Positions 2,612 through 10,214 of a stretch of DNA of 64,000 bases are shown here, one piece after another. The DNA lies in the IMG/VR virus record IMGVR_UViG_3300036846_001134, positions 2,379 through 66,378 of that record; one strand, written 5' to 3'. The notes beneath the pieces are model-generated. The model searched no databases, had not been told where the DNA came from, and worked only from the letters and a program-made list of their open reading frames with translations. This DNA is from a virus. Position 1 is the stretch's first letter. Each line of letters begins with the position of its first letter. The translations under genes were made by a program, and so were the position numbers.

Positions 2612-3205
2612 ATGACGACGACGACAGCAACACCGACAGCAACACCCTCCGCCCAGGACATAGCCCGCAAGCTACAGCATGCCCTAGTCTTGGCCGGGCT
2701 CCACGTGACCGAGGGCAAGAGCGAGCAGGCCAAGGACTTACGCCTGGCCTTGAAGCTCATCACCGAGTGCCTTACCCCTGCCCAGGTGGACCAGGCCAGG
2801 GCCACGCTGAAGGCCATGAAGGCGCCCAAAGCCCCCACGGTTACCCCCGTGACCATCACCCACGTGCCCATGCAGACTGGCCGCGCCCCGCAAGCCCCTC
2901 CCAGGCTAGCGGCAGCGCCGCCAGCGCCTAAGCCGACCAGCCTTGAGTCCGCGATTAGCAGCTTTCCCCCTGTGTTCGGCTTCCGGCATTTCGCCGATTC
3001 GATCCGGTTTCGGATTAGCCCCTCCGAAAGCCTGGTTACCCCCGAGGGTAAGATCCTGCTCGCCGTCCACCGCCTGGCCAAGGGCTCGACCACGGAGAGC
3101 GCCTTGTTCGGGAAAGTCAGCCCGGAAGGACTGCGGAGTCAGGTCGCGGCATGGGCCGCGACTAAGACCGGAGAGATAAGCTATGACCAAAGAGATAAGC
3201 TATGA
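2612..3205 (+). CDS. Hypothetical early protein
   Basis: 197-aa ORF directly after P1, with AAGGA RBS and ACCCC-ATG. Confidence 0.7.
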   Translation: MTTTTATPTATPSAQDIARKLQHALVLAGLHVTEGKSEQAKDLRLALKLITECLTPAQVDQARATLKAMKAPKAPTVTPVTITHVPMQTGRAPQAPPRLAAAPPAPKPTSLESAISSFPPVFGFRHFADSIRFRISPSESLVTPEGKILLAVHRLAKGSTTESALFGKVSPEGLRSQVAAWAATKTGEISYDQRDKL

Positions 3206-3300
3206 CCAAAGAGTTACTCCAGAACGTCGCCATCGCGCTACTGATTGTAGCCCTCTGGCTAGGCTTCGCGGCTGTGGTCGCCGAATCGCTCACGCCGTGA
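3202..3300 (+). CDS. Small membrane peptide (32 aa)
   Basis: MTKELLQNVAIALLIVALWLGFAAVVAESLTP; ATGA overlap with upstream stop. Confidence 0.5.
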   Translation: MTKELLQNVAIALLIVALWLGFAAVVAESLTP

Positions 3301-3320
3301 TGGCGCTGGCGACGGGAGAT
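3280..3320 (+). ncRNA. Degenerate hammerhead remnant (3' half only)
   Basis: gccGAAT-stem III-AC-gggagat matches copies 2 and 3; no CUGANGA upstream. Confidence 0.5.
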
Positions 3321-3347
3321 CCACCGGGCATGGCATAACCCATGCGA

Positions 3348-3392
3348 TTTCACCCCCACTCGCTTGACAAAAATCGAGCGATGCGGCAAACT
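3348..3392 (+). promoter_or_regulatory. Early promoter P2
   Basis: TTTCACCCC; TTGACA at 3364-3369; 17 nt; CAAACT. Confidence 0.8.
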
Positions 3393-3440
3393 GGTTTCAG
3401 TGGCGCGAGAAACGCCCAGGACTTAGAGGAGACTTACCCC

Positions 3441-3587
3441 ATGACGAACGCTAACTTCAACGCCGATGACTTTGACCTGATGGAACAGACCGACACCTAC
3501 CTGGCCAGCCTGGACCTGGAGATGGTCTGGGAATATGCGGACGCCCATGACGACCTGGCCAACTGGCTCAAGGCGGACCTGGACTAA
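3441..3587 (+). CDS. Small acidic early protein (48 aa)
   Basis: GAGGAG RBS, ACCCC-ATG; Asp/Glu-rich. Confidence 0.65.
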   Translation: MTNANFNADDFDLMEQTDTYLASLDLEMVWEYADAHDDLANWLKADLD

Positions 3588-3642
3588 ATCCCCTGACGAT
3601 GGCCCACTGGGAAGGGGCCGAAATGCCGCGAGGCATCGGGAT
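3588..3642 (+). ncRNA. Type I hammerhead ribozyme HH1 (AUC, predicted cut after 3637)
   Basis: auccc-CUGACGA-U-ggccc/gggcc-GAAA-ugcc(GCGA)ggca-UC-gggau. Confidence 0.9.
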
Positions 3643-3668
3643 ATTTCCCACAGAGAGAAACACACACC

Positions 3669-3935
3669 ATGACGACCACACAGACCATCGACACCGACGC
3701 CTTGCTGGCCCAGCTGGAGGCCCTCCGGGCGGAGAACGACAAGCTGCGCACGCAGCCCAGGACGGCATCGCCGCTAACCCTGCGGGTAAGCGAGAAGGGC
3801 GCCTTGAGCGTCTACGGCATGGGCCGCTTCCCGGTCACGCTGTACCGCGAGCAGTGGACCAAGCTGCTCGGCTACGCCGACCAGATCCGCGAGTTCATCC
3901 GGGTGAACGACGCCAGCCTCGCGACCAAGCAGTAA
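3669..3935 (+). CDS. Conserved small phage protein (88 aa)
   Basis: Coiled N-terminus plus LRVSEKGALSVYGMGRFPVTLY. Confidence 0.75.
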   Translation: MTTTQTIDTDALLAQLEALRAENDKLRTQPRTASPLTLRVSEKGALSVYGMGRFPVTLYREQWTKLLGYADQIREFIRVNDASLATKQ

Positions 3936-4001
3936 CTCCCCTGACGATGGCCTATGGGGATAGGCCGAATGGCTCATGCCGGGAGGCATTGGCCACGGGA
4001 G
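3936..4001 (+). ncRNA. Hammerhead ribozyme HH2 (U15.1-A16.1 variant, predicted cut after 3996)
   Basis: cuccc-CUGACGA-U-ggccuau/auaggcc-GAA-U-extended stem III (GGGA loop)-A-C-gggag. Confidence 0.8.
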
Positions 4002-4012
4002 ATACCCACACC

Positions 4013-4180
4013 ATGACGACGACTTACAACGGCCTGATTCAGGCCATGACCATCATCCATGCGGCCAAGAGCGAAGTTACCCGCGAGGAAGGCATGATGA
4101 TTACCCCGCACTGGCGCATGCTGCTGCATGCCGGGGAGTACCTGAACAGGCAGGCCACTGACTTACTCCGAGGTGAGTAA
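4013..4180 (+). CDS. Small hypothetical early protein (55 aa)
   Basis: ATG downstream of GGGAG of HH2. Confidence 0.65.
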   Translation: MTTTYNGLIQAMTIIHAAKSEVTREEGMMITPHWRMLLHAGEYLNRQATDLLRGE

Positions 4181-4223
4181 GTCGCAACCGGGTGGGCTAA
4201 GTCTAGCGGCTAGGCCCACCGCG

Positions 4224-4268
4224 TTTCACCCCAAGTTGCTTGACAATTTTCGAGCGATTTGAGAAACT
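4224..4268 (+). promoter_or_regulatory. Early promoter P3
   Basis: TTTCACCCC; TTGACA at 4240-4245; 17 nt; TGn-GAAACT; preceded by GC hairpin ~4191-4220. Confidence 0.8.
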
Positions 4269-4294
4269 GGAAATCGAGCGAGGAGATACACCCC

Positions 4295-4510
4295 ATGAGT
4301 AAGACGAAAGACAAGACGGTAACCTGGAGCGAAAGCTCAAGCGCCTACTGGTTCGACTGCGGCTACCGCACGGCGTGCTGCGGCGACGGCGTGGATATGT
4401 TCTTCACCGAGGACGGTGAGGCTATCAGTCCTGGCACGCCGGAATTCGAGGCGTGCATGGACGCGGCATGCCTGGACCCGGAGACGTGGGAGGCTTACTT
4501 TGGCAGTTAG
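4295..4510 (+). CDS. Small acidic Cys-containing protein
   Basis: GAGGAG RBS, ACCCC-ATG. Confidence 0.7.
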   Translation: MSKTKDKTVTWSESSSAYWFDCGYRTACCGDGVDMFFTEDGEAISPGTPEFEACMDAACLDPETWEAYFGS

Positions 4511-4514
4511 CTAA

Positions 4515-4568
4515 CTCCCCTGACGATGGCCCACGGGGGTGGGCCGAATCGCCGCGAGGCGACGGGAG
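4515..4568 (+). ncRNA. Hammerhead ribozyme HH3 (U15.1-A16.1 variant, predicted cut after 4563)
   Basis: cuccc-CUGACGA-U-ggcccac(gggg)gugggcc-GAA-U-cgcc(GCGA)ggcg-A-C-gggag. Confidence 0.8.
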
Positions 4569-4591
4569 ATACCCACAAGGAGAGTAACCCC

Positions 4592-4852
4592 ATGACGAAC
4601 ACTAACGAACCAATCCGTAGGGCGACCTACGCCAAGATGCGTGCCGCGCTCAAAGCCGCGCTTGAGGACCTGGAGATCCTGAGCGGCGACAAGGTCGGCC
4701 CGAGCGGCGTAAGCTGGCAGGACGTGGCCGGAACCTGCGCCACTAACTTCCAGGTGCTGGTCTGGAACCTGGAACGGGCGCGGCAAGGCTATGCCGAGCC
4801 TAACATCACCTTCCCGTCGCCTGCCGAATGCCTGGAGGAGAGCCATGAGTAA
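4592..4852 (+). CDS. Hypothetical early protein
   Basis: AAGGAG RBS, ACCCC-ATG. Confidence 0.7.
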   Translation: MTNTNEPIRRATYAKMRAALKAALEDLEILSGDKVGPSGVSWQDVAGTCATNFQVLVWNLERARQGYAEPNITFPSPAECLEESHE

Positions 4853-4997
4853 CGGCGCCTGGTACGACTACACCTTGCAGGCCTGGGTGGTGGACGGGCG
4901 CTATGTCCCCTGCGGCCACCCGGCCAGCATGAACTGCGCCTGCTACGGCAGGCTGCATGCCGGGGAGACGGCGACCGAGCGGGAGGAGGGCCAGTGA
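4845..4997 (+). CDS. Small Cys/His protein
   Basis: GGAGGAG RBS; YDYTLQAWVVDGRYVPCGHP..C.CYG. Confidence 0.65.
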   Translation: MSNGAWYDYTLQAWVVDGRYVPCGHPASMNCACYGRLHAGETATEREEGQ

Positions 4998-5152
4998 TCC
5001 GCGACTCTATCGCCTCCGCTTGCACATGGCTATGGGTCGCCTCCCTGATAGTAGCGGCGTTCCTGCCGCACGGCCATTGGACCTTCGACTACGCCTGCTA
5101 TGCGAGCTTCGTCGGTTTCATGGGCTGGATTGTCGCTATGTTGAGCCGCTAA
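4994..5152 (+). CDS. Small two-TM membrane protein (52 aa)
   Basis: GTG start overlapping upstream TGA; hydrophobic; stop abuts HH4. Confidence 0.55.
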   Translation: MIRDSIASACTWLWVASLIVAAFLPHGHWTFDYACYASFVGFMGWIVAMLSR

Positions 5153-5153
5153 C

Positions 5154-5201
5154 CCCCTGACGAGGCCGTGCGAGTCGGCCGAAACGCCGTGAGGCGTAGG
5201 G
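5154..5201 (+). ncRNA. Hammerhead ribozyme HH4 (GUA, predicted cut after 5198)
   Basis: ccc-CUGACGA-ggccg(ugcgagu)cggcc-GAAA-cgcc(GUGA)ggcg-UA-ggg. Confidence 0.9.
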
Positions 5202-5216
5202 AGAAAACCGGACCCG

Positions 5217-5261
5217 TTTCACCCCAAATTGCTTGACAAAAATCGAGCGATTTGCGATACT
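5217..5261 (+). promoter_or_regulatory. Early promoter P4
   Basis: TTTCACCCC; TTGACA at 5233-5238; 17 nt; TGn-GATACT. Confidence 0.85.
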
Positions 5262-5320
5262 GGGTTCAACGGCGCGAACAAGCGCCGCCAACGTTCAGAC
5301 GAGAGATAAGGATACACCCC

Positions 5321-6154
5321 ATGAATACGATCAACATGCGTCACAGCGTCCGTTCCATGACGGCGCTCTCTAACGACCAGCTTAGGGCGGTTGCCCCGAG
5401 CGTGTTTGCCATGGAGCCATGGCACCGGATGAGCGACAAGTACGCCTTCATCCCCACCATCGCGGTCATCGAGCGGATGCGGGAAGAGGGCTTCCAGCCC
5501 GTGCAGGCCATGCAGTCGAGGACCCGCATCGAGGGCAAGGGGGACTTCACCAAGCACCTGATCCGCTTCCGCGACATGCGCCAGGGGGACCAGCCCTTGA
5601 CCCGCCAGCTGGGCGTGGTCTACCCCGAGCTGGTCCTGACCAACAGCCACGACGGGGCCAGCGCCTATAAGCTCGATAGCGGGCTGTTCCGCCTGGTCTG
5701 CACCAACGGCATGGTGGTCGGCGACGGCGTGGTCAATCACATCAGCGTGCGCCACACCGGAAGCCCGGACGGCGTGATCAACGCGAGCTTTGAGGTCATC
5801 GACCAGATGCCCAAGGTGATCGACAGCGTGGAGAACTTCCAGCGGCTGCGGCTAGAGGCGCCGCAGGCCGAGGTGTTCGCCACCGCCGCGCTTCAACTGC
5901 GCTACGACGAGGGGGAGGCGCCTATCACTCCCGCCCAGGTGCTGCAACCGCGCCGCATGGAGGACTCTACGCCCACCCTGTGGAACACCTTCAACCGCGC
6001 CCAGGAAGCCCTGGTCGGCGGCGGTATCCGGGGCCGCAGCGCCGAGACGCGCCGTCGCCTGCGGACGCGCCCGGTGGAAGGCATCACCGAGAACACCAAG
6101 CTGAACAAGGCCCTCTGGACCTTGGCCGAGGAGATGCGCAAGCTGATGAGCTAA
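5321..6154 (+). CDS. DUF932/DUF945 family protein
   Basis: SDKYAFIPT, TKHLIRFR, LTNSHDG, LFRLVCTNGMV, LWNTFNRAQE, KLNKALW motifs typical of this phage/plasmid family. Confidence 0.85.
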   Translation: MNTINMRHSVRSMTALSNDQLRAVAPSVFAMEPWHRMSDKYAFIPTIAVIERMREEGFQPVQAMQSRTRIEGKGDFTKHLIRFRDMRQGDQPLTRQLGVVYPELVLTNSHDGASAYKLDSGLFRLVCTNGMVVGDGVVNHISVRHTGSPDGVINASFEVIDQMPKVIDSVENFQRLRLEAPQAEVFATAALQLRYDEGEAPITPAQVLQPRRMEDSTPTLWNTFNRAQEALVGGGIRGRSAETRRRLRTRPVEGITENTKLNKALWTLAEEMRKLMS

Positions 6155-6202
6155 CCGGGAAGGGGGCCGCGAGGCCCCCACGCCCAACCTAAAGGAAAAC
6201 CC

Positions 6203-6502
6203 ATGGAACAAATTAAACCCTACGAACTAAGCCTGGGCATCGAGCACCTGATGACGGGCGCGGAATTGGTCAGCGAGACTGGGCGCAGCTTTCACTTCGA
6301 GTACGAGAGCCCGAGCGTGGTGCGCGTCACCTGCCGGGAGCCCTTCGCCTGCTACTGGAGGCCGCAAGGCCAGGACAGTGCGCCCATCAAGCTGAATGCC
6401 ACCTTGGCCGACCACGGCCTGACCCTGGAGTTCAGCGAGAGCGAGGTGCGATTCTTCGCCCGCGACATGGCCGAGGCCATGCGGGCCAAGTTCAACAGCT
6501 AA
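6203..6502 (+). CDS. Hypothetical early protein
   Basis: AAGGA RBS; stop abuts HH5. Confidence 0.7.
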   Translation: MEQIKPYELSLGIEHLMTGAELVSETGRSFHFEYESPSVVRVTCREPFACYWRPQGQDSAPIKLNATLADHGLTLEFSESEVRFFARDMAEAMRAKFNS

Positions 6503-6503
6503 C

Positions 6504-6551
6504 CCCCTGACGAGGCCGTGCGAGTCGGCCGAAACGCCGCGAGGCGTCGGG
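6504..6551 (+). ncRNA. Hammerhead ribozyme HH5 (GUC, predicted cut after 6548)
   Basis: Canonical core; stem II as in HH4; GCGA loop III. Confidence 0.9.
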
Positions 6552-6574
6552 ACATATTCCCAAGGACCAACCCC

Positions 6575-6871
6575 ATGACGACGACGATAGAACTCACCCC
6601 GAGCCTGACCTCCATGCGGATCATCGCCTGGACCGACGAGGCCGTATACCTGAGACTGCCGCTCGAACTACAGCGCGACTGCGGCGGCTGTAGCTGCGAG
6701 CAATGCAAGAAAAATCCGAAACTCGCGAAATGGGACACGCTGGCGGTGCCCGTCAAGGGCAAGCCGCGCGGATCGTACAGCGAGAACCACTCCTGGACCG
6801 TCCACATGCCGGACGGCGCGGTGGCGGGCTTCATGGAGTACATGAAGAACAAGGCCAAGGAGAAAGCCTGA
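6575..6871 (+). CDS. Cys-rich hypothetical early protein
   Basis: CGGCSCEQC motif; ACCCC-ATG. Confidence 0.7.
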   Translation: MTTTIELTPSLTSMRIIAWTDEAVYLRLPLELQRDCGGCSCEQCKKNPKLAKWDTLAVPVKGKPRGSYSENHSWTVHMPDGAVAGFMEYMKNKAKEKA

Positions 6872-6990
6872 TGGCCGACAGCGATAGCGGCTGCGCACTG
6901 GTGGGCTGCGGCATCGTGGGCTACTTCGCGTTCTGGGCCGTGGTGATCGTTGCCGCAACCTTGCTCGTGAAGTTCGTCTGGACCTGGTAG
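6871..6990 (+). CDS. Small membrane peptide (39 aa)
   Basis: TGATG coupling; hydrophobic stretch. Confidence 0.55.
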   Translation: MADSDSGCALVGCGIVGYFAFWAVVIVAATLLVKFVWTW

Positions 6991-6999
6991 CCCATCAAC

Positions 7000-7047
7000 C
7001 CCCTGACGAGGCCGTGAGAGTCGGCCGAAACGCCGCGAGGCGTCGGG
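7000..7047 (+). ncRNA. Hammerhead ribozyme HH6 (GUC, predicted cut after 7044)
   Basis: Canonical core; loop II ugagagu. Confidence 0.9.
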
Positions 7048-7070
7048 AGAGAAAGGAATCCCATTACCCC

Positions 7071-7310
7071 ATGACCGCAAACAAAACCTACGCGCTTACC
7101 GATACCTTGCGCACGCCGGCACGCGAGCTTCACCCCTTCCCCGGCCTGTTCTACTACTCGGGCTTTGGCATGGGCCACTACTACTCGACCGACGGCACGG
7201 CCCACTGGGCGGCATCGAGCGAGGCCAAGGACCTGGCCGCGAGCGAGGGCGTCAAGTACGTCTACGTGGACGCGCTCGAAGGCTACCAGGCCGTCTACCT
7301 GGGCGACTAG
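7071..7310 (+). CDS. Hypothetical early protein
   Basis: AAAGGA RBS, ACCCC-ATG. Confidence 0.7.
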   Translation: MTANKTYALTDTLRTPARELHPFPGLFYYSGFGMGHYYSTDGTAHWAASSEAKDLAASEGVKYVYVDALEGYQAVYLGD

Positions 7311-7315
7311 GCGCA

Positions 7316-7359
7316 TTTCACCCCAAGCACTTGACAAAATTCGAGCAACGTGAGAAACT
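7316..7359 (+). promoter_or_regulatory. Early promoter P5
   Basis: TTTCACCCC; TTGACA at 7331-7336; 17 nt; TGn-GAAACT. Confidence 0.85.
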
Positions 7360-7381
7360 GGAAATCGAAAGGAAACACCCC

Positions 7382-7672
7382 ATGAACTGGAGCGTACCCG
7401 CTACCGACTACGCGGTAATCGTCAAGATTGCCCAACGCGCCACGGCCCTCGCCAGGCGCTACAACGTGAACTACCCGCAGGGCACCGCCCTGATGGACCT
7501 GACGGCCTGCCACGCCAATGCCTTCCGCCTGCGCGTGGAGGAGTTGCTCAAGGCCGATGACTCTAACTTCGCCCATGACGTGTTCGGCATCCGCCGCCAC
7601 CTCGACCGCGAGACGGGCAAGCTCGCGGATTGCTTCGTGCCGCGCTTCGCGAGCAAGGAGGCGGTGAACTAG
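7382..7672 (+). CDS. Conserved phage protein (DUF6874-like)
   Basis: MDLTACHAN..LLKADDSNFAHDVFGIRRHLDRETGKL..CFVPRF; family name recalled, not searched. Confidence 0.6.
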   Translation: MNWSVPATDYAVIVKIAQRATALARRYNVNYPQGTALMDLTACHANAFRLRVEELLKADDSNFAHDVFGIRRHLDRETGKLADCFVPRFASKEAVN

Positions 7673-7674
7673 CC

Positions 7675-7842
7675 ATGCGGAAGTACATCATCGTGCGCAA
7701 CACCGACCGTCCCGGTCACTGCCATGTCGAGATCCACAAGTACATCGGCCAGGAGGAAGGCATCCCGTGCTATGAGCACTACCGGACGATGAAGAACTTC
7801 CCCGAGGCGGCGGACCTGATCCGGCGTCTGGAAGCCGCCTAA
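7675..7842 (+). CDS. Small hypothetical protein
   Basis: GGAGG upstream; stop abuts HH7. Confidence 0.6.
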   Translation: MRKYIIVRNTDRPGHCHVEIHKYIGQEEGIPCYEHYRTMKNFPEAADLIRRLEAA

Positions 7843-7843
7843 C

Positions 7844-7902
7844 CCCCTGACGAGCCCGTGAAAGTCGGCGCGAAACGCCCCGTCGAGATGACGGCGCGTC
7901 GG
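7844..7902 (+). ncRNA. Hammerhead ribozyme HH7 (GUC, predicted cut after 7899)
   Basis: Canonical core; bulged stem II; stem III extended by ccguc/gacgg. Confidence 0.88.
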
Positions 7903-7926
7903 GACATTATCCCAAGGACATACCCC

Positions 7927-8313
7927 ATGACAGAACGATTCTTTATCGACAGGCCCGTACAGACGGGCGCAATGAGCCAGCCGCGCGACCTGGACGACGC
8001 CGTCTTCCCCACTTACGCGGAGATGGACGGCAACCTGCTCAAGTGGAGCGGCAGCTTCCCCCTGCCCGAGGTGGGCGCCCACGTCTACATCACCATGAAC
8101 AACATCGGCTGGGCCTACGTGGAAGGCTACTTTGCGAGCGCTGGCTACCTGGGCGTGATGACTCGTGCCACCAACCCGCCCGCGTGGCTGCGCAGGCAGC
8201 AGCGCGAGCGCGCCAACTGCCCCAACTCGCCCGAGTGGGTGCGCAAGGGCATCGGCTGCGAGTTCGGGACCGAGATCGCGCTGACCAAACCCAGGCGCAA
8301 GGAGGTGGCATAG
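7927..8313 (+). CDS. Hypothetical early protein
   Basis: AAGGA RBS, ACCCC-ATG. Confidence 0.7.
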   Translation: MTERFFIDRPVQTGAMSQPRDLDDAVFPTYAEMDGNLLKWSGSFPLPEVGAHVYITMNNIGWAYVEGYFASAGYLGVMTRATNPPAWLRRQQRERANCPNSPEWVRKGIGCEFGTEIALTKPRRKEVA

Positions 8314-8315
8314 CC

Positions 8316-8579
8316 ATGACGATAGACCAAGCCTGCGAGAGAGCCCGCCAGCTGCGCGGCAAGCAATTCCTGATGCCCCAGGACCGGGACGCGCTGGATA
8401 GCCTGATGGGCGCGGCGCTGGTGGCCCAGCGCCTGATGGCCCGCCTGGAAACCCTGGAGTCGCTGACGGGCGCGCTCCAGGATACCAACGAAAGCTCCGA
8501 CGGTGGCGAGAGCTACATGGTGATGGGCAATGTGGACACGGCCCTATTGATCGAGGTTGGGCTGCGGAGGGCGAAATGA
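8316..8579 (+). CDS. Hypothetical protein
   Basis: GGAGGT RBS. Confidence 0.65.
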   Translation: MTIDQACERARQLRGKQFLMPQDRDALDSLMGAALVAQRLMARLETLESLTGALQDTNESSDGGESYMVMGNVDTALLIEVGLRRAK

Positions 8580-8890
8580 CCAAGACCATCGACATCACCC
8601 CCAACTTCGCGCATCTGTTCGCGATGTTCATAGAGCAGGCCCGCACCCAGGGCCTGCACATCACCCGCTACCTGCCGCTAGAGGAGGTGGTCAACAAGCC
8701 CGCCACGCTCGCGGCCGTGCTGCGCGGCTTTGAAGGCCCTATCGTGGCGCTCAACATCGCCGCGAGCGCCATGACCACGGCCGAGGAGGTCGAGCAGCTG
8801 CGCAGCGTGCTGAGCGAGTTGGCGAGCTACCTCGACCAGACCGCAGGCCGCCTGGAGAAGCAGGCCGAGGGGGAGGACGGCAAGCGATGA
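8576..8890 (+). CDS. Hypothetical protein
   Basis: ATGA overlap, GGAGG RBS. Confidence 0.7.
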   Translation: MTKTIDITPNFAHLFAMFIEQARTQGLHITRYLPLEEVVNKPATLAAVLRGFEGPIVALNIAASAMTTAEEVEQLRSVLSELASYLDQTAGRLEKQAEGEDGKR

Positions 8891-9033
8891 GTTGGTGCAT
8901 GTATTGCTGCCTCGCGCTTCATCCAACGATGTTGACTGGGTATTGCCTGACCCGGTGCAAGTGCGACAACTGTGGCCGTACGGCGGATCTGGCGATGGTG
9001 AAACCTAAGATGAGCACCGAGGAAAAGCAGTAA
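8887..9033 (+). CDS. Small Cys-rich (zinc-ribbon-like) protein (48 aa)
   Basis: CMYC...CKCDNC; ATGA overlap; stop abuts HH8. Confidence 0.6.
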   Translation: MSWCMYCCLALHPTMLTGYCLTRCKCDNCGRTADLAMVKPKMSTEEKQ

Positions 9034-9034
9034 C

Positions 9035-9083
9035 CCCCTGACGAGGCCGTGAAAGTCGCGCCGAAACGCCGTGAGGCGTCGGG
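9035..9083 (+). ncRNA. Hammerhead ribozyme HH8 (GUC, predicted cut after 9080)
   Basis: Canonical core; loop II ugaaagu; bulged stem II. Confidence 0.9.
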
Positions 9084-9108
9084 ACACATTCCCAAGGAAA
9101 CAAACCCC

Positions 9109-9288
9109 ATGACAACGACAACCTACGTGGCCGTGCAGCAGACCGGAAAGCGCACGACCTTCGAGCGCGAGGAGGAGGCCAGGACCTTCGCCGAGCGCTG
9201 CCGGAGAGACGACATGTTCACCTACATCCTGGAAGTCAAGACGCGGTTCCTGGCGAGCTATTGCCCCGAGCCGGCGGAGGTGAAATAG
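9109..9288 (+). CDS. Small hypothetical protein
   Basis: AAGGA RBS, ACCCC-ATG. Confidence 0.65.
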   Translation: MTTTTYVAVQQTGKRTTFEREEEARTFAERCRRDDMFTYILEVKTRFLASYCPEPAEVK

Positions 9289-9290
9289 CC

Positions 9291-9545
9291 ATGCCAAAAC
9301 CCAAGGACCTGATTGCCTACATCGTCGCCAAGGTGCGGATCGCGCCGCGCGATGGCGAAAAGTACGACTTCGACCATGTGGCCGGGTATATCGAGGGCGC
9401 GCTCTCGCGGGCCATGCGGGAGAACGATCCCGAGGACGACGTGGTGGACCTGATTACATTCCACCAGAACCGCGCGCCGCTTGAAACCGCCGCGCTCGAC
9501 AGGCTGTTGAGCACCGGGATGATCGACGAGGAGACGAAATCATGA
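9291..9545 (+). CDS. Hypothetical protein
   Basis: GGAGGTGA RBS. Confidence 0.7.
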   Translation: MPKPKDLIAYIVAKVRIAPRDGEKYDFDHVAGYIEGALSRAMRENDPEDDVVDLITFHQNRAPLETAALDRLLSTGMIDEETKS

Positions 9546-9775
9546 CCACCACCGAGAAACTGATCCAGTCCCAGGTCAAGCGCCTGGGCGAGAGCTTCGA
9601 GCGCCTCAAGGTCTGGACCGACTTCAACTATCAGGCCACGCGCGCCTGTCCCGCCAACCCCGAGCAGATCCTGCGCGAGAGCAACCGCGTCGCGCAGCTG
9701 GCCGAGGGTATCGAGCACCTGATCGAGCGCCGCGCCAAGGAGATAGCGGCGGCCAAGAAGGTGAAGCAGCCATGA
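9542..9775 (+). CDS. Hypothetical protein
   Basis: ATGA overlap. Confidence 0.7.
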   Translation: MTTTEKLIQSQVKRLGESFERLKVWTDFNYQATRACPANPEQILRESNRVAQLAEGIEHLIERRAKEIAAAKKVKQP

Positions 9776-10101
9776 GCAAACTGATTGGCAAGCGCTTCCG
9801 CACCCTGATTCCTGATTACGAGGAGGACGAGGAGTACGGCGAGGTGACGCATCCCATAGGCAGCGAGTTCATTGTCGTCGCCAACCTGGACTACCAGTGG
9901 GGCGAGCCGGGGGACAAGGGCTACGGCTACGCGCACAGCGTGTCCTGGCAGGGGACCGCCCTGCCGGGAAGCTGGCAGGGCGGCAAGAAGAAGCTGTTCG
10001 TCGTCACCGGGACGCCCGTGCCAGCCGAGGGTATGTGGTGCATCTGGACCGACGTCGAGATTGCCCGCGACGCCGTGGAGGTGACGGAACCAACCCCCTG
10101 A
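9772..10101 (+). CDS. Hypothetical protein
   Basis: ATGA overlap; its TGA stop is the UGA of the HH9 core. Confidence 0.7.
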   Translation: MSKLIGKRFRTLIPDYEEDEEYGEVTHPIGSEFIVVANLDYQWGEPGDKGYGYAHSVSWQGTALPGSWQGGKKKLFVVTGTPVPAEGMWCIWTDVEIARDAVEVTEPTP

Positions 10102-10143
10102 CGAGCCCGTGAAAGTCGGTGCGAAACGCCGTGAGGCGTCGGG
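10095..10143 (+). ncRNA. Hammerhead ribozyme HH9 (GUC, predicted cut after 10140)
   Basis: ccc-CUGACGA-gcccg(ugaaagu)cggugc-GAAA-cgcc(GUGA)ggcg-UC-ggg. Confidence 0.88.
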
Positions 10144-10147
10144 AGCA

Positions 10148-10192
10148 TTTCACCCCGCTGCGCTTGACAAAATTCAAGCGCAATGCGAAACT
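10148..10192 (+). promoter_or_regulatory. Early promoter P6
   Basis: TTTCACCCC; TTGACA at 10164-10169; 17 nt; TGn-GAAACT. Confidence 0.85.
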
Positions 10193-10214
10193 GATTATTG
10201 AAAGGCAATACCCC

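What the first reader, a model, noticed from the sequence alone, without database searches (positions are those of the whole stretch)
3585..10101. Every ribozyme begins at a stop codon: possible translation-coupled cleavage
Seen: stops at 3585, 3933, 5150, 6500, 7840 and 9031 lie 0-1 nt before stem I, and stops at 4508 and 6988 lie within 10 nt. In HH9 the stop (TGA 10099-10101) is the UGA of the catalytic CUGA. Inference: a terminating ribosome would cover the 5' strand of stem I and the core, so cleavage could depend on ribosome occupancy. The upstream product would keep stems II and III as a protective 3' structure.
Basis: partly seen in the sequence, partly recalled or inferred. Interest (0 to 1): 0.7.

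Follow-up and report, generated by a model that had tools for sequence, protein, structure and literature searches.

The report
Phage hammerhead ribozymes flush with stop codons
Nine self-cutting hammerhead RNA motifs fill the gaps between small early genes of a phage, each starting at or just after the upstream stop codon; this layout is common in phages, and no data show that ribosomes control the cutting.

Summary
The window is a complete 66-kb virus record. It carries nine type I hammerhead motifs on the + strand. The upstream ORF's stop lies 4-5 nt before C3 of the CUGA core in six copies, 9 and 12 nt before it in two, and is the core UGA in the ninth. Codon statistics or homologs support eight of the nine upstream ORFs. 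The ORF before HH8 (8887-9033) has no support.

The spacing is not random in relatives. Among 132 callable independent hammerheads from other phage contigs, 75 have the stop within 1 nt of stem I or overlapping the ribozyme. In 91 it is at most 12 nt before C3, in 20 the ORF ends inside the ribozyme, and in 30 it is more than 30 nt away.

In this window, however, all ten gene junctions without a ribozyme or promoter also have spacers of 2 nt or less (coordinates). Ordinary compaction of a stop-ribozyme-RBS-start cassette therefore explains the layout.

A terminating ribosome must melt stem I. That is geometry, not evidence of regulation, and translation-gated cleavage remains untested. Hammerhead clusters between phage genes are known (PMC3088659). 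Notes from this scan report stop-flush hammerheads in other phage windows.

The parts
3585..3642 (+). HH1 with its stop. TAA 3585-3587 ends g1 (3441-3587). Stem I 5' strand 3588-3592, C3 3593, cleavage after 3637, stem I 3' strand 3638-3642.
   Evidence: (46.4 bits with model R1)
3933..4001 (+). HH2. TAA 3933-3935 ends g2 (3669-3935). Stem I 3936-3940, C3 3941, cleavage after 3996. It has a U15.1:A16.1 swap and a long stem III.
   Evidence: (20.9 bits); the only copy whose minimum-energy fold is the hammerhead
4508..4568 (+). HH3. TAG 4508-4510 ends g4 (4295-4510). An unused out-of-frame TAA lies at 4512-4514. Stem I 4515-4519, C3 4520, cleavage after 4563. U15.1:A16.1 swap.
   Evidence: (46.3 bits)
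5150..5201 (+). HH4. TAA 5150-5152 ends g7 (4994-5152). CCC 5154-5156, C3 5157, cleavage after 5198. A promoter-like repeat follows at 5217.
   Evidence: 85.2 bits; g7 homolog in L130, followed by the same ribozyme
6500..6551 (+). HH5. TAA 6500-6502 ends g9 (6203-6502). C3 6507, cleavage after 6548.
   Evidence: (86.9 bits)
6988..7047 (+). HH6. TAG 6988-6990 ends g11 (6871-6990). There are 12 nt to C3 at 7003. Cleavage after 7044.
   Evidence: 85.2 bits; in L130 the g11 homolog ends in a TAA 4 nt before C3
7840..7903 (+). HH7. TAA 7840-7842 ends g14 (7675-7842). C3 7847, cleavage after 7900. Long stem III.
   Evidence: Rfam Hammerhead_3, 20.1 bits, below the gathering score of 48.5; 62 bits
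9031..9083 (+). HH8. TAA 9031-9033 ends the unsupported ORF g18 (8887-9033). C3 9038, cleavage after 9080.
   Evidence: (80.8 bits)
10095..10143 (+). HH9. CCC 10095-10097, C3 10098. TGA 10099-10101 is both the core UGA and the stop of g22 (9772-10101). Cleavage after 10140. A promoter-like repeat follows at 10148.
   Evidence: 80.7 bits; g22 log-likelihood +54.5

Best explanation
These are nine type I hammerhead ribozymes built into standard intergenic cassettes of a phage early region. The cassette order is stop codon, ribozyme, short GGGA..UCCC segment, ribosome-binding site, then ATG.

Early transcripts start at five repeated promoter-like boxes of the TTGACA type. The transcripts are probably cut into one- to four-gene messages. 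Each upstream message keeps its stop codon and ends 45-60 nt later in stems II and III with a cyclic phosphate. Each downstream message starts with a 5'-OH GGG.

The ribozyme sits flush with the stop because the cassette fills the whole spacer in a genome that leaves no spare bases. Stem I has no sequence requirement, so it can begin at the first free nucleotide or even overlap the end of the gene.

Shown here: the motifs, their covarying stems, the stop spacing in this phage and in other phage contigs, and the compaction. Inferred: self-cleavage in vivo, the stabilising role of the 3' hairpins, and the reason for flush placement.
For: - Motif. All nine copies have CUGANGA, GAA, three stems and a non-G base at position 17. 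There are 9 forward, 0 reverse and 0 control-pattern matches in the genome.
- Covariation. In 75 sequences aligned to model R1, 10 of 13 pairs change on both sides, 99.6% of cells are paired, and 0 of 500 shuffles reach the observed score.
- Repeat boundary. The repeat unit starts at the TAA or AA and runs to ACCCCATGAC, with no conservation upstream of the stop.
- Compaction. The ten early-gene junctions without a ribozyme or promoter have spacers of -8 to +2 nt (coordinates).
- Overlap is tolerated. HH9 uses the core UGA as its stop. In L130 a g21 homolog reads through stem I and the core and ends at a UGA in loop II. In 20 of 132 other hammerheads the ORF ends inside the ribozyme.
- 3' structure. 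The 5' products fold into two 3'-terminal hairpins.
- Precedent. Hammerhead clusters flanking single genes in prophages, with in vitro cleavage of ~2-kb polycistronic constructs, are published (PMC3088659, passages read).
Against: - No cleavage data exist for these copies.
- Rfam reports nothing at gathering score.
- Stem I of HH4-9 is only 3 bp. Minimum-energy folds of HH1, 3, 5 and 8 prefer the downstream GGGA..UCCC hairpin to stem I.
- HH2 and HH3 break the NUH rule.
- In other phages the stop-to-ribozyme gap is tighter than ordinary gene-to-gene spacers. It is 1 nt or less in 75 of 132 hammerheads, against 309 of 1110 spacers. Compaction alone may therefore not explain the family-wide pattern.
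- If saving bases were the only aim, stops at the core UGA should dominate. In fact the position just before stem I is the mode.
Confidence: 0.6

Rival explanations
1. Translation-gated cleavage. The flush stop is selected because the terminating ribosome melts stem I. Ribosome traffic on the upstream gene would then delay or steer ribozyme folding, for instance into the competing GGGA..UCCC hairpin, or would drive release of the cut products.
For: - The geometry fits in 8 or 9 of the 9 copies.
- A ribosome at a stop 5 bp before a terminator hairpin blocks that hairpin in vivo (PMC4824070).
- Flush placement is enriched family-wide over ordinary spacers, with binomial p = 4e-12 against a 28% baseline.
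- The gap distribution peaks sharply at 0 nt.
- A competing hairpin is predicted for HH1, 3, 5 and 8.
Against: - There are no functional data.
- Cleavage is irreversible and termination is brief, so a lasting effect needs a kinetic trap that has not been shown.
- 30 of 132 relatives are more than 30 nt from a stop, and 11 more are 13-30 nt away.
- HH6 at 12 nt and HH3 at 9 nt are at or beyond the edge of a footprint.
- Within this window the spacing equals the genome's default packing.
Confidence: 0.15
2. Inheritance rather than selection. The TAA belongs to a repeat cassette that spreads by recombination at gene boundaries, so the stop and ribozyme travel together and flush spacing is a by-product of descent.
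For: - TAA ends 6 of 9 ribozyme-preceding genes against 3 of 14 other early genes (one-sided Fisher p = 0.04).
- HH3 keeps an unused out-of-frame TAA at the cassette position.
- HH6 and HH9 keep the AA without the T.
- Gene order differs between the window and L130, with ribozymes or promoters at the breakpoints. For example, g12 is followed by a promoter here and by a ribozyme in L130.
Against: - Flush stops recur in unrelated AT-rich phages with different stem I sequences and different upstream genes. A single inherited cassette cannot explain that.
- The Fisher test is weak, and the copies within one phage are not independent.
Confidence: 0.2
3. The repeats are hammerhead-like but inactive. 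They would act only as structured intergenic elements, such as 3' stabilisers, protein-binding sites or recombination linkers.
For: - Stem I of HH4-9 is 3 bp.
- Rfam gathering gives 0 matches, and the best scores are 19-20 bits.
- HH2 and HH3 have U15.1:A16.1.
- Minimum-energy folds mostly lack stem I.
Against: The catalytic core is intact in all nine copies and in 8 of 8 copies in L130, while stems II and III covary freely. Strict core conservation is hard to explain without catalysis.
Confidence: 0.05

Closest known systems
Clustered hammerhead ribozymes flanking genes in prophages and phages (Perreault et al. 2011, PMC3088659; passages read)
   Same: Several hammerheads lie in gene orientation between single genes or short gene blocks of unknown function. 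The proposed role is cutting long phage transcripts into gene-length mRNAs. Core variants occur in phage copies.
   Different: Here there are nine type I copies in 6.5 kb, of two subtypes. One subtype has a 3-bp stem I, and two copies carry a swapped 15.1-16.1 pair. The words 'stop codon' and 'translation' do not occur in that paper's main text. Its supplements, which hold the alignments, could not be seen.
Ribosome repression of intrinsic terminators placed next to stop codons (Li et al. 2015, PMC4824070; abstract and section 10 read)
   Same: An RNA structure that starts about 5 nt after a stop codon is kept from folding by the ribosome.
   Different: A terminator acts only in a brief co-transcriptional window. 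A ribozyme can fold and cut after the ribosome leaves, so the same geometry need not change the outcome.
Type I hammerhead spanning a whole 66-nt intergenic UTR in a fusarivirus (PMC13725137; passages read)
   Same: The ribozyme fills the entire spacer between two ORFs, and the cut site lies a few nucleotides before the next start codon.
   Different: That is a eukaryotic RNA virus, where the ribozyme is proposed to serve translation initiation of the downstream ORF. No stop-codon relation is discussed in the passages read.
Synthetic ribozyme insulators such as RiboJ
   Same: A hammerhead followed by a small hairpin is placed in front of an RBS, so that each gene's expression is independent of upstream sequence.
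   Different: RiboJ is engineered and sits after a promoter. It is not flush with a stop codon.

Membership tests
Hammerhead ribozyme, type I | Conserved core: C3-U4-G5-A6-N7-G8-A9 and G12-A13-A14 | tested here: met
   9 of 9 copies. HH1-3 carry one extra U after A9 (ins = 1).
Hammerhead ribozyme, type I | A15.1-U16.1 pair and a cleavage triplet NUH | tested here: inconclusive
   7 of 9 have A15.1:U16.1 with C or A at position 17. HH2 and HH3 have U15.1:A16.1, which gives a GAC triplet.
Hammerhead ribozyme, type I | Three helices around the core, with helices II and III closed by loops and helix I open | tested here: met
   Stems II and III have 9 of 10 pairs with changes on both sides in 75 sequences. 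Stem I is 5 bp in HH1-3 but only 3 bp in HH4-9. Its sequence was fixed by the search pattern, so it has no covariation support.
Hammerhead ribozyme, type I | Match to the curated Rfam hammerhead models at gathering score | tested here: not met
   0 matches at gathering score. Only two sub-threshold Hammerhead_3 matches were found, at 20.1 and 19.2 bits against a threshold of 48.5.
Hammerhead ribozyme, type I | Site-specific self-cleavage | not testable with these tools
   No RNA holder was listed. This needs in vitro transcription or 5'-OH / cyclic-phosphate mapping.
Clustered phage hammerheads (Perreault 2011) | Several copies in the transcription direction between genes of a phage or prophage | tested here: met
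   Nine copies, all on the + strand and all intergenic, in a complete virus record.
Ribosome-gated RNA structure next to a stop codon | The structure begins within about 10 nt 3' of the stop codon | tested here: met
   Stem I begins 0-1 nt after the stop in 6 copies, 4 nt after in HH3 and 9 nt after in HH6, and HH9 overlaps its stop. HH8 depends on the unsupported ORF g18.
Ribosome-gated RNA structure next to a stop codon | The function changes when translation of the upstream ORF is removed | not testable with these tools

The most novel reading that the evidence does not exclude
Flush placement against the stop codon is a selected design of phage hammerheads in general. The terminating ribosome would open stem I at every round of translation. 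It would thereby gate ribozyme folding, through kinetic partition into a competing hairpin, or drive irreversible release of the cut products. Intercistronic cleavage would then be coupled to translation of the upstream gene.
Probability: 0.15. Interest if true: 0.7.

Novelty: new member of a known kind. Interest (0 to 1): 0.38.

Why it matters
The biological role of bacterial and phage self-cleaving ribozymes is still described as open (review PMC6765202, passages read). Two results here sharpen the question.

- About 57% of 132 independent phage type I hammerheads start at the upstream stop codon.
- About 15% overlap the end of the upstream ORF.

This regularity constrains models of how these ribozymes work. 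The ribozyme and a terminating ribosome cannot occupy the same RNA at the same moment, and each upstream message is left with a minimal, structured 3' end.

The regularity also gives a simple test: move the stop or remove the start codon. For this particular window the layout is what its extreme gene packing predicts, so it is an ordinary though dense example.

Tried and rejected
- Rfam. The gathering search found nothing. The E-value search found two sub-threshold Hammerhead_3 matches.
Only 1 of its loci, L124, passed my descriptor.
- Relatives found through the 277-aa protein g8. Of the 18 clear relatives, L130-L147, only L130 carries these ribozymes. Orthologous junctions could therefore be compared in one phage only.
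- The genome-contig scan gave 4 stretches.
- Three early ORF-calling heuristics were wrong and are not used: the last stop per frame, the longest ORF within 300 nt and the nearest ORF of 40 codons or more. They mis-assigned short genes and off-frame ORFs in GC-rich DNA. A codon-model caller replaced them. That caller is still crude, because its training is pooled by GC bin and start codons are approximate.
- Set 2 hits were filtered only by my descriptor, not by the covariance model. A few look false, for example two hits whose stems are weak.
- The whole-window stop-codon tally counted 124 ORFs. That is too many for 64 kb, so it includes off-frame ORFs and is not used.
- PHROGs named none of the ribozyme-flanking genes. 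Three of 20 proteins hit families of unknown function.
- The homolog search for g18 found only g18 itself.
- RNA runs: no RNA holder was listed.
- Paper searches for a published stop-codon rule for hammerheads, and term look-ups in PMC3088659, PMC6765202 and PMC8782182, found no mention of one. Supplements are closed, and subscription journals are not covered.
- I considered extended stem I pairing of the UAA with downstream U-rich bases. It fits one copy in L264 and HH7 but is not consistent across copies, judged by reading. It was rejected as a general explanation.
Full report
**What is there.** The window is nearly all of a 66,378-base virus record rated complete, with 64% G+C. Between 3585 and 10143 the + strand carries nine copies of a 42-56-nt motif. 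Each copy has CUGANGA, a hairpin, GAA, a second hairpin, one non-G base and then GGG. The GGG pairs with the 3-5 bases that precede CUGA. This is the type I hammerhead layout. The genome has 9 forward, 0 reverse and 0 control-pattern matches.

There are two subtypes. HH1-3 have a 5-bp stem I and an extra U after A9, and HH2 and HH3 have U15.1:A16.1 in place of A:U. HH4-9 have only CCC/GGG plus a C.A. Rfam finds nothing at gathering score and only two 19-20-bit Hammerhead_3 matches below it.

**Are they real hammerheads?** I built a covariance model from eight copies. It found all nine window copies, eight copies in the closest relative L130, and 58 more in other phage contigs. On that 75-sequence alignment 99.6% of cells pair, 10 of 13 pairs change on both sides, and 0 of 500 shuffles reach the observed score. 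The alignment is fitted to the model. Stem I was fixed by the search pattern, so the support applies to stems II and III only. The catalytic core is intact throughout. Self-cleavage itself is untested.

**The observation.** The gene map rests on codon statistics trained on the rest of the phage and on homologs in L130.

| Copy | Stop (start) | nt from stop to C3 | Stop to stem I |
|---|---|---|---|
| HH1 | TAA 3585 | 5 | 0 nt |
| HH2 | TAA 3933 | 5 | 0 nt |
| HH3 | TAG 4508 | 9 | 4 nt |
| HH4 | TAA 5150 | 4 | 0-1 nt |
| HH5 | TAA 6500 | 4 | 0-1 nt |
| HH6 | TAG 6988 | 12 | 9 nt |
| HH7 | TAA 7840 | 4 | 0-1 nt |
| HH8 | TAA 9031 | 4 | 0-1 nt |
| HH9 | TGA 10099 | -4 (the stop is the core UGA) | overlaps |

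In the six TAA copies the intervening bases are the 5' strand of stem I. Eight upstream ORFs are supported. The ORF before HH8 (g18, 48 aa) scores -0.2 and has no relative. It does have a GGAGG box and an ATGA overlap with g17, and without it 143 nt would be non-coding in a very tight genome.

**Is it more than chance?**
- In the window plus relatives, 30 of 59 ribozymes with both flanking genes called lie within 1 nt of the stop. Uniform placement within the spacer predicts 7.1.
- I sampled phage hammerheads twice from the viral collection. The first pattern fixed stem I as CCC/GGGA. The second left stem I free. Both samples were clustered at 80% identity over ribozyme plus flanks.
- Of 148 independent clusters outside the window and L130, 132 had a callable upstream gene. 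In 75 the stop is within 1 nt of stem I or overlaps the ribozyme. In 91 it is at most 12 nt before C3. In 20 the ORF ends inside the ribozyme, at the core UGA or later. In 30 it is more than 30 nt away.
- Ordinary same-strand gene spacers in the same loci are 1 nt or less in 309 of 1110 cases.

The gene calls are automatic and crude, and set 2 was not re-checked with the covariance model.

**Why the ordinary reading still wins for this window.** The ten early-gene junctions that hold neither a ribozyme nor a promoter have spacers of -8 to +2 nt (coordinates). A ribozyme that starts 0-1 nt after the stop is simply this phage's normal packing.

The repeat unit begins at the TAA or AA and runs through the ribozyme, a GGGA..UCCC segment and an AAGGA box to ACCCCATGAC. 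Nothing upstream of the stop is conserved. The whole spacer is thus one standard cassette. Stem I has no sequence requirement, so it can begin at the first non-coding base.

Overlap with the ORF is tolerated. HH9 uses the core UGA as its stop. In L130 the g21 homolog reads through stem I and the core and stops at a UGA in loop II.

**What the layout implies.**
- The upstream product keeps its stop codon and ends in stems II and III. The predicted energy is -13.8 to -27.6 kcal/mol, and the last hairpin ends 1 nt from the 3' end. This fits a minimal protected 3' end, which is an inference.
- A ribosome with the stop in its A site protects about 10 nt downstream. A stop placed 5 bp before a terminator hairpin abolished termination in E. 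coli (PMC4824070). A terminating ribosome must therefore open stem I here.
- Whether that matters is unknown. The cut is irreversible and can happen once the ribosome leaves. A lasting effect would need a kinetic trap.
- A candidate trap exists. The minimum-energy folds of HH1, 3, 5 and 8 contain the downstream GGGA..UCCC hairpin instead of stem I. This is only a prediction.

**Descent versus selection.**
- TAA ends 6 of 9 ribozyme-preceding genes and 3 of 14 other early genes (one-sided p = 0.04).
- HH3 keeps an unused, out-of-frame TAA at the cassette position.
- HH6 and HH9 keep the AA without the T.
- Gene order differs between the window and L130, with ribozymes or promoters at the breakpoints.

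Cassette inheritance thus contributes inside this phage lineage. It cannot explain the same spacing in unrelated AT-rich phages with other stem I sequences.

**Comparison with what is known.** Hammerhead clusters flanking single genes in prophages, with the proposal that they cut long transcripts into gene-length mRNAs, were published in 2011 (PMC3088659). The words 'stop codon' and 'translation' do not occur in that paper's main text, and 'stop codon' does not occur in the 2019 review PMC6765202. My searches found no paper that states the rule. Supplements and subscription journals were out of reach.

Earlier notes of this scan describe stop-flush hammerheads in other phage windows. The arrangement therefore recurs and is not special to this DNA.

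**Verdict.** This is a dense new member of a known kind.

Noticed in passing
window 3247-3321: A remnant of the 3' half of an HH2/HH3-like hammerhead (GAA-U, a long stem III, then ACGGGAGA) without a CUGANGA core. It lies inside a small ORF (3183-3338) upstream of the first promoter repeat. Model R1 scores it 17.1 bits, E = 0.039.
   Followed up: partly
window 5199-5277 and 10141-10208: HH4 and HH9 are not followed by a gene start. Each is followed directly by a promoter-like repeat (TTTCACCCC..TTGACA, at 5217 and 10148). They would trim read-through transcripts at operon ends rather than separate cistrons. No intrinsic terminator is predicted there.
   Followed up: partly
L130 6225-6455: In the closest relative, the homolog of g21 has lost its own C-terminus. 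It reads through stem I and the CUGACGA core of a hammerhead and stops at a UGA in loop II. The last eight codons are ribozyme sequence.
   Followed up: yes
window 7840-7861 and 9031-9052: HH7 and HH8 close all three reading frames within 22 nt: TAA at -7, the core UGA at +1 and a loop II UGA at +12 relative to C3. The other copies close one or two frames.
   Followed up: yes
window 6871-9288 versus L130 2519-6425: Gene order is shuffled between the two phages, and ribozymes or promoters sit at the breakpoints. g12 is followed by a promoter here and by a hammerhead in L130. g13 is preceded by a promoter here and by a hammerhead in L130. g19 is preceded by a hammerhead in both, but after different genes.
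   Followed up: partly
window 3638-3649, 4564-4574, 6549-6561, 9081-9093: The GGG that should form stem I is predicted to pair instead with a CCC 5-10 nt downstream in the minimum-energy folds of HH1, 3, 5 and 8. Only HH2 folds as a hammerhead by nearest-neighbour energies.
   Followed up: partly
window 4191-4352: The only stretch of the early region with DNA similarity to named phages is a hairpin, a promoter repeat and the start of g4. It is 70-73% identical to Pseudomonas phages such as Itty13 and MP1412, to Burkholderia phage BcepIL02 and to a Bordetella phage. This hints at a beta- or gamma-proteobacterial host.
   Followed up: no
L264 (minus strand, 2996-6200): One unrelated 35.6-kb phage contig carries six type I hammerheads of both stem I styles (AAUCCC and AACCCC) in 3.2 kb. 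In one of them, stem I continues for five more pairs after the C.A mismatch and includes the stop codon's bases.
   Followed up: no
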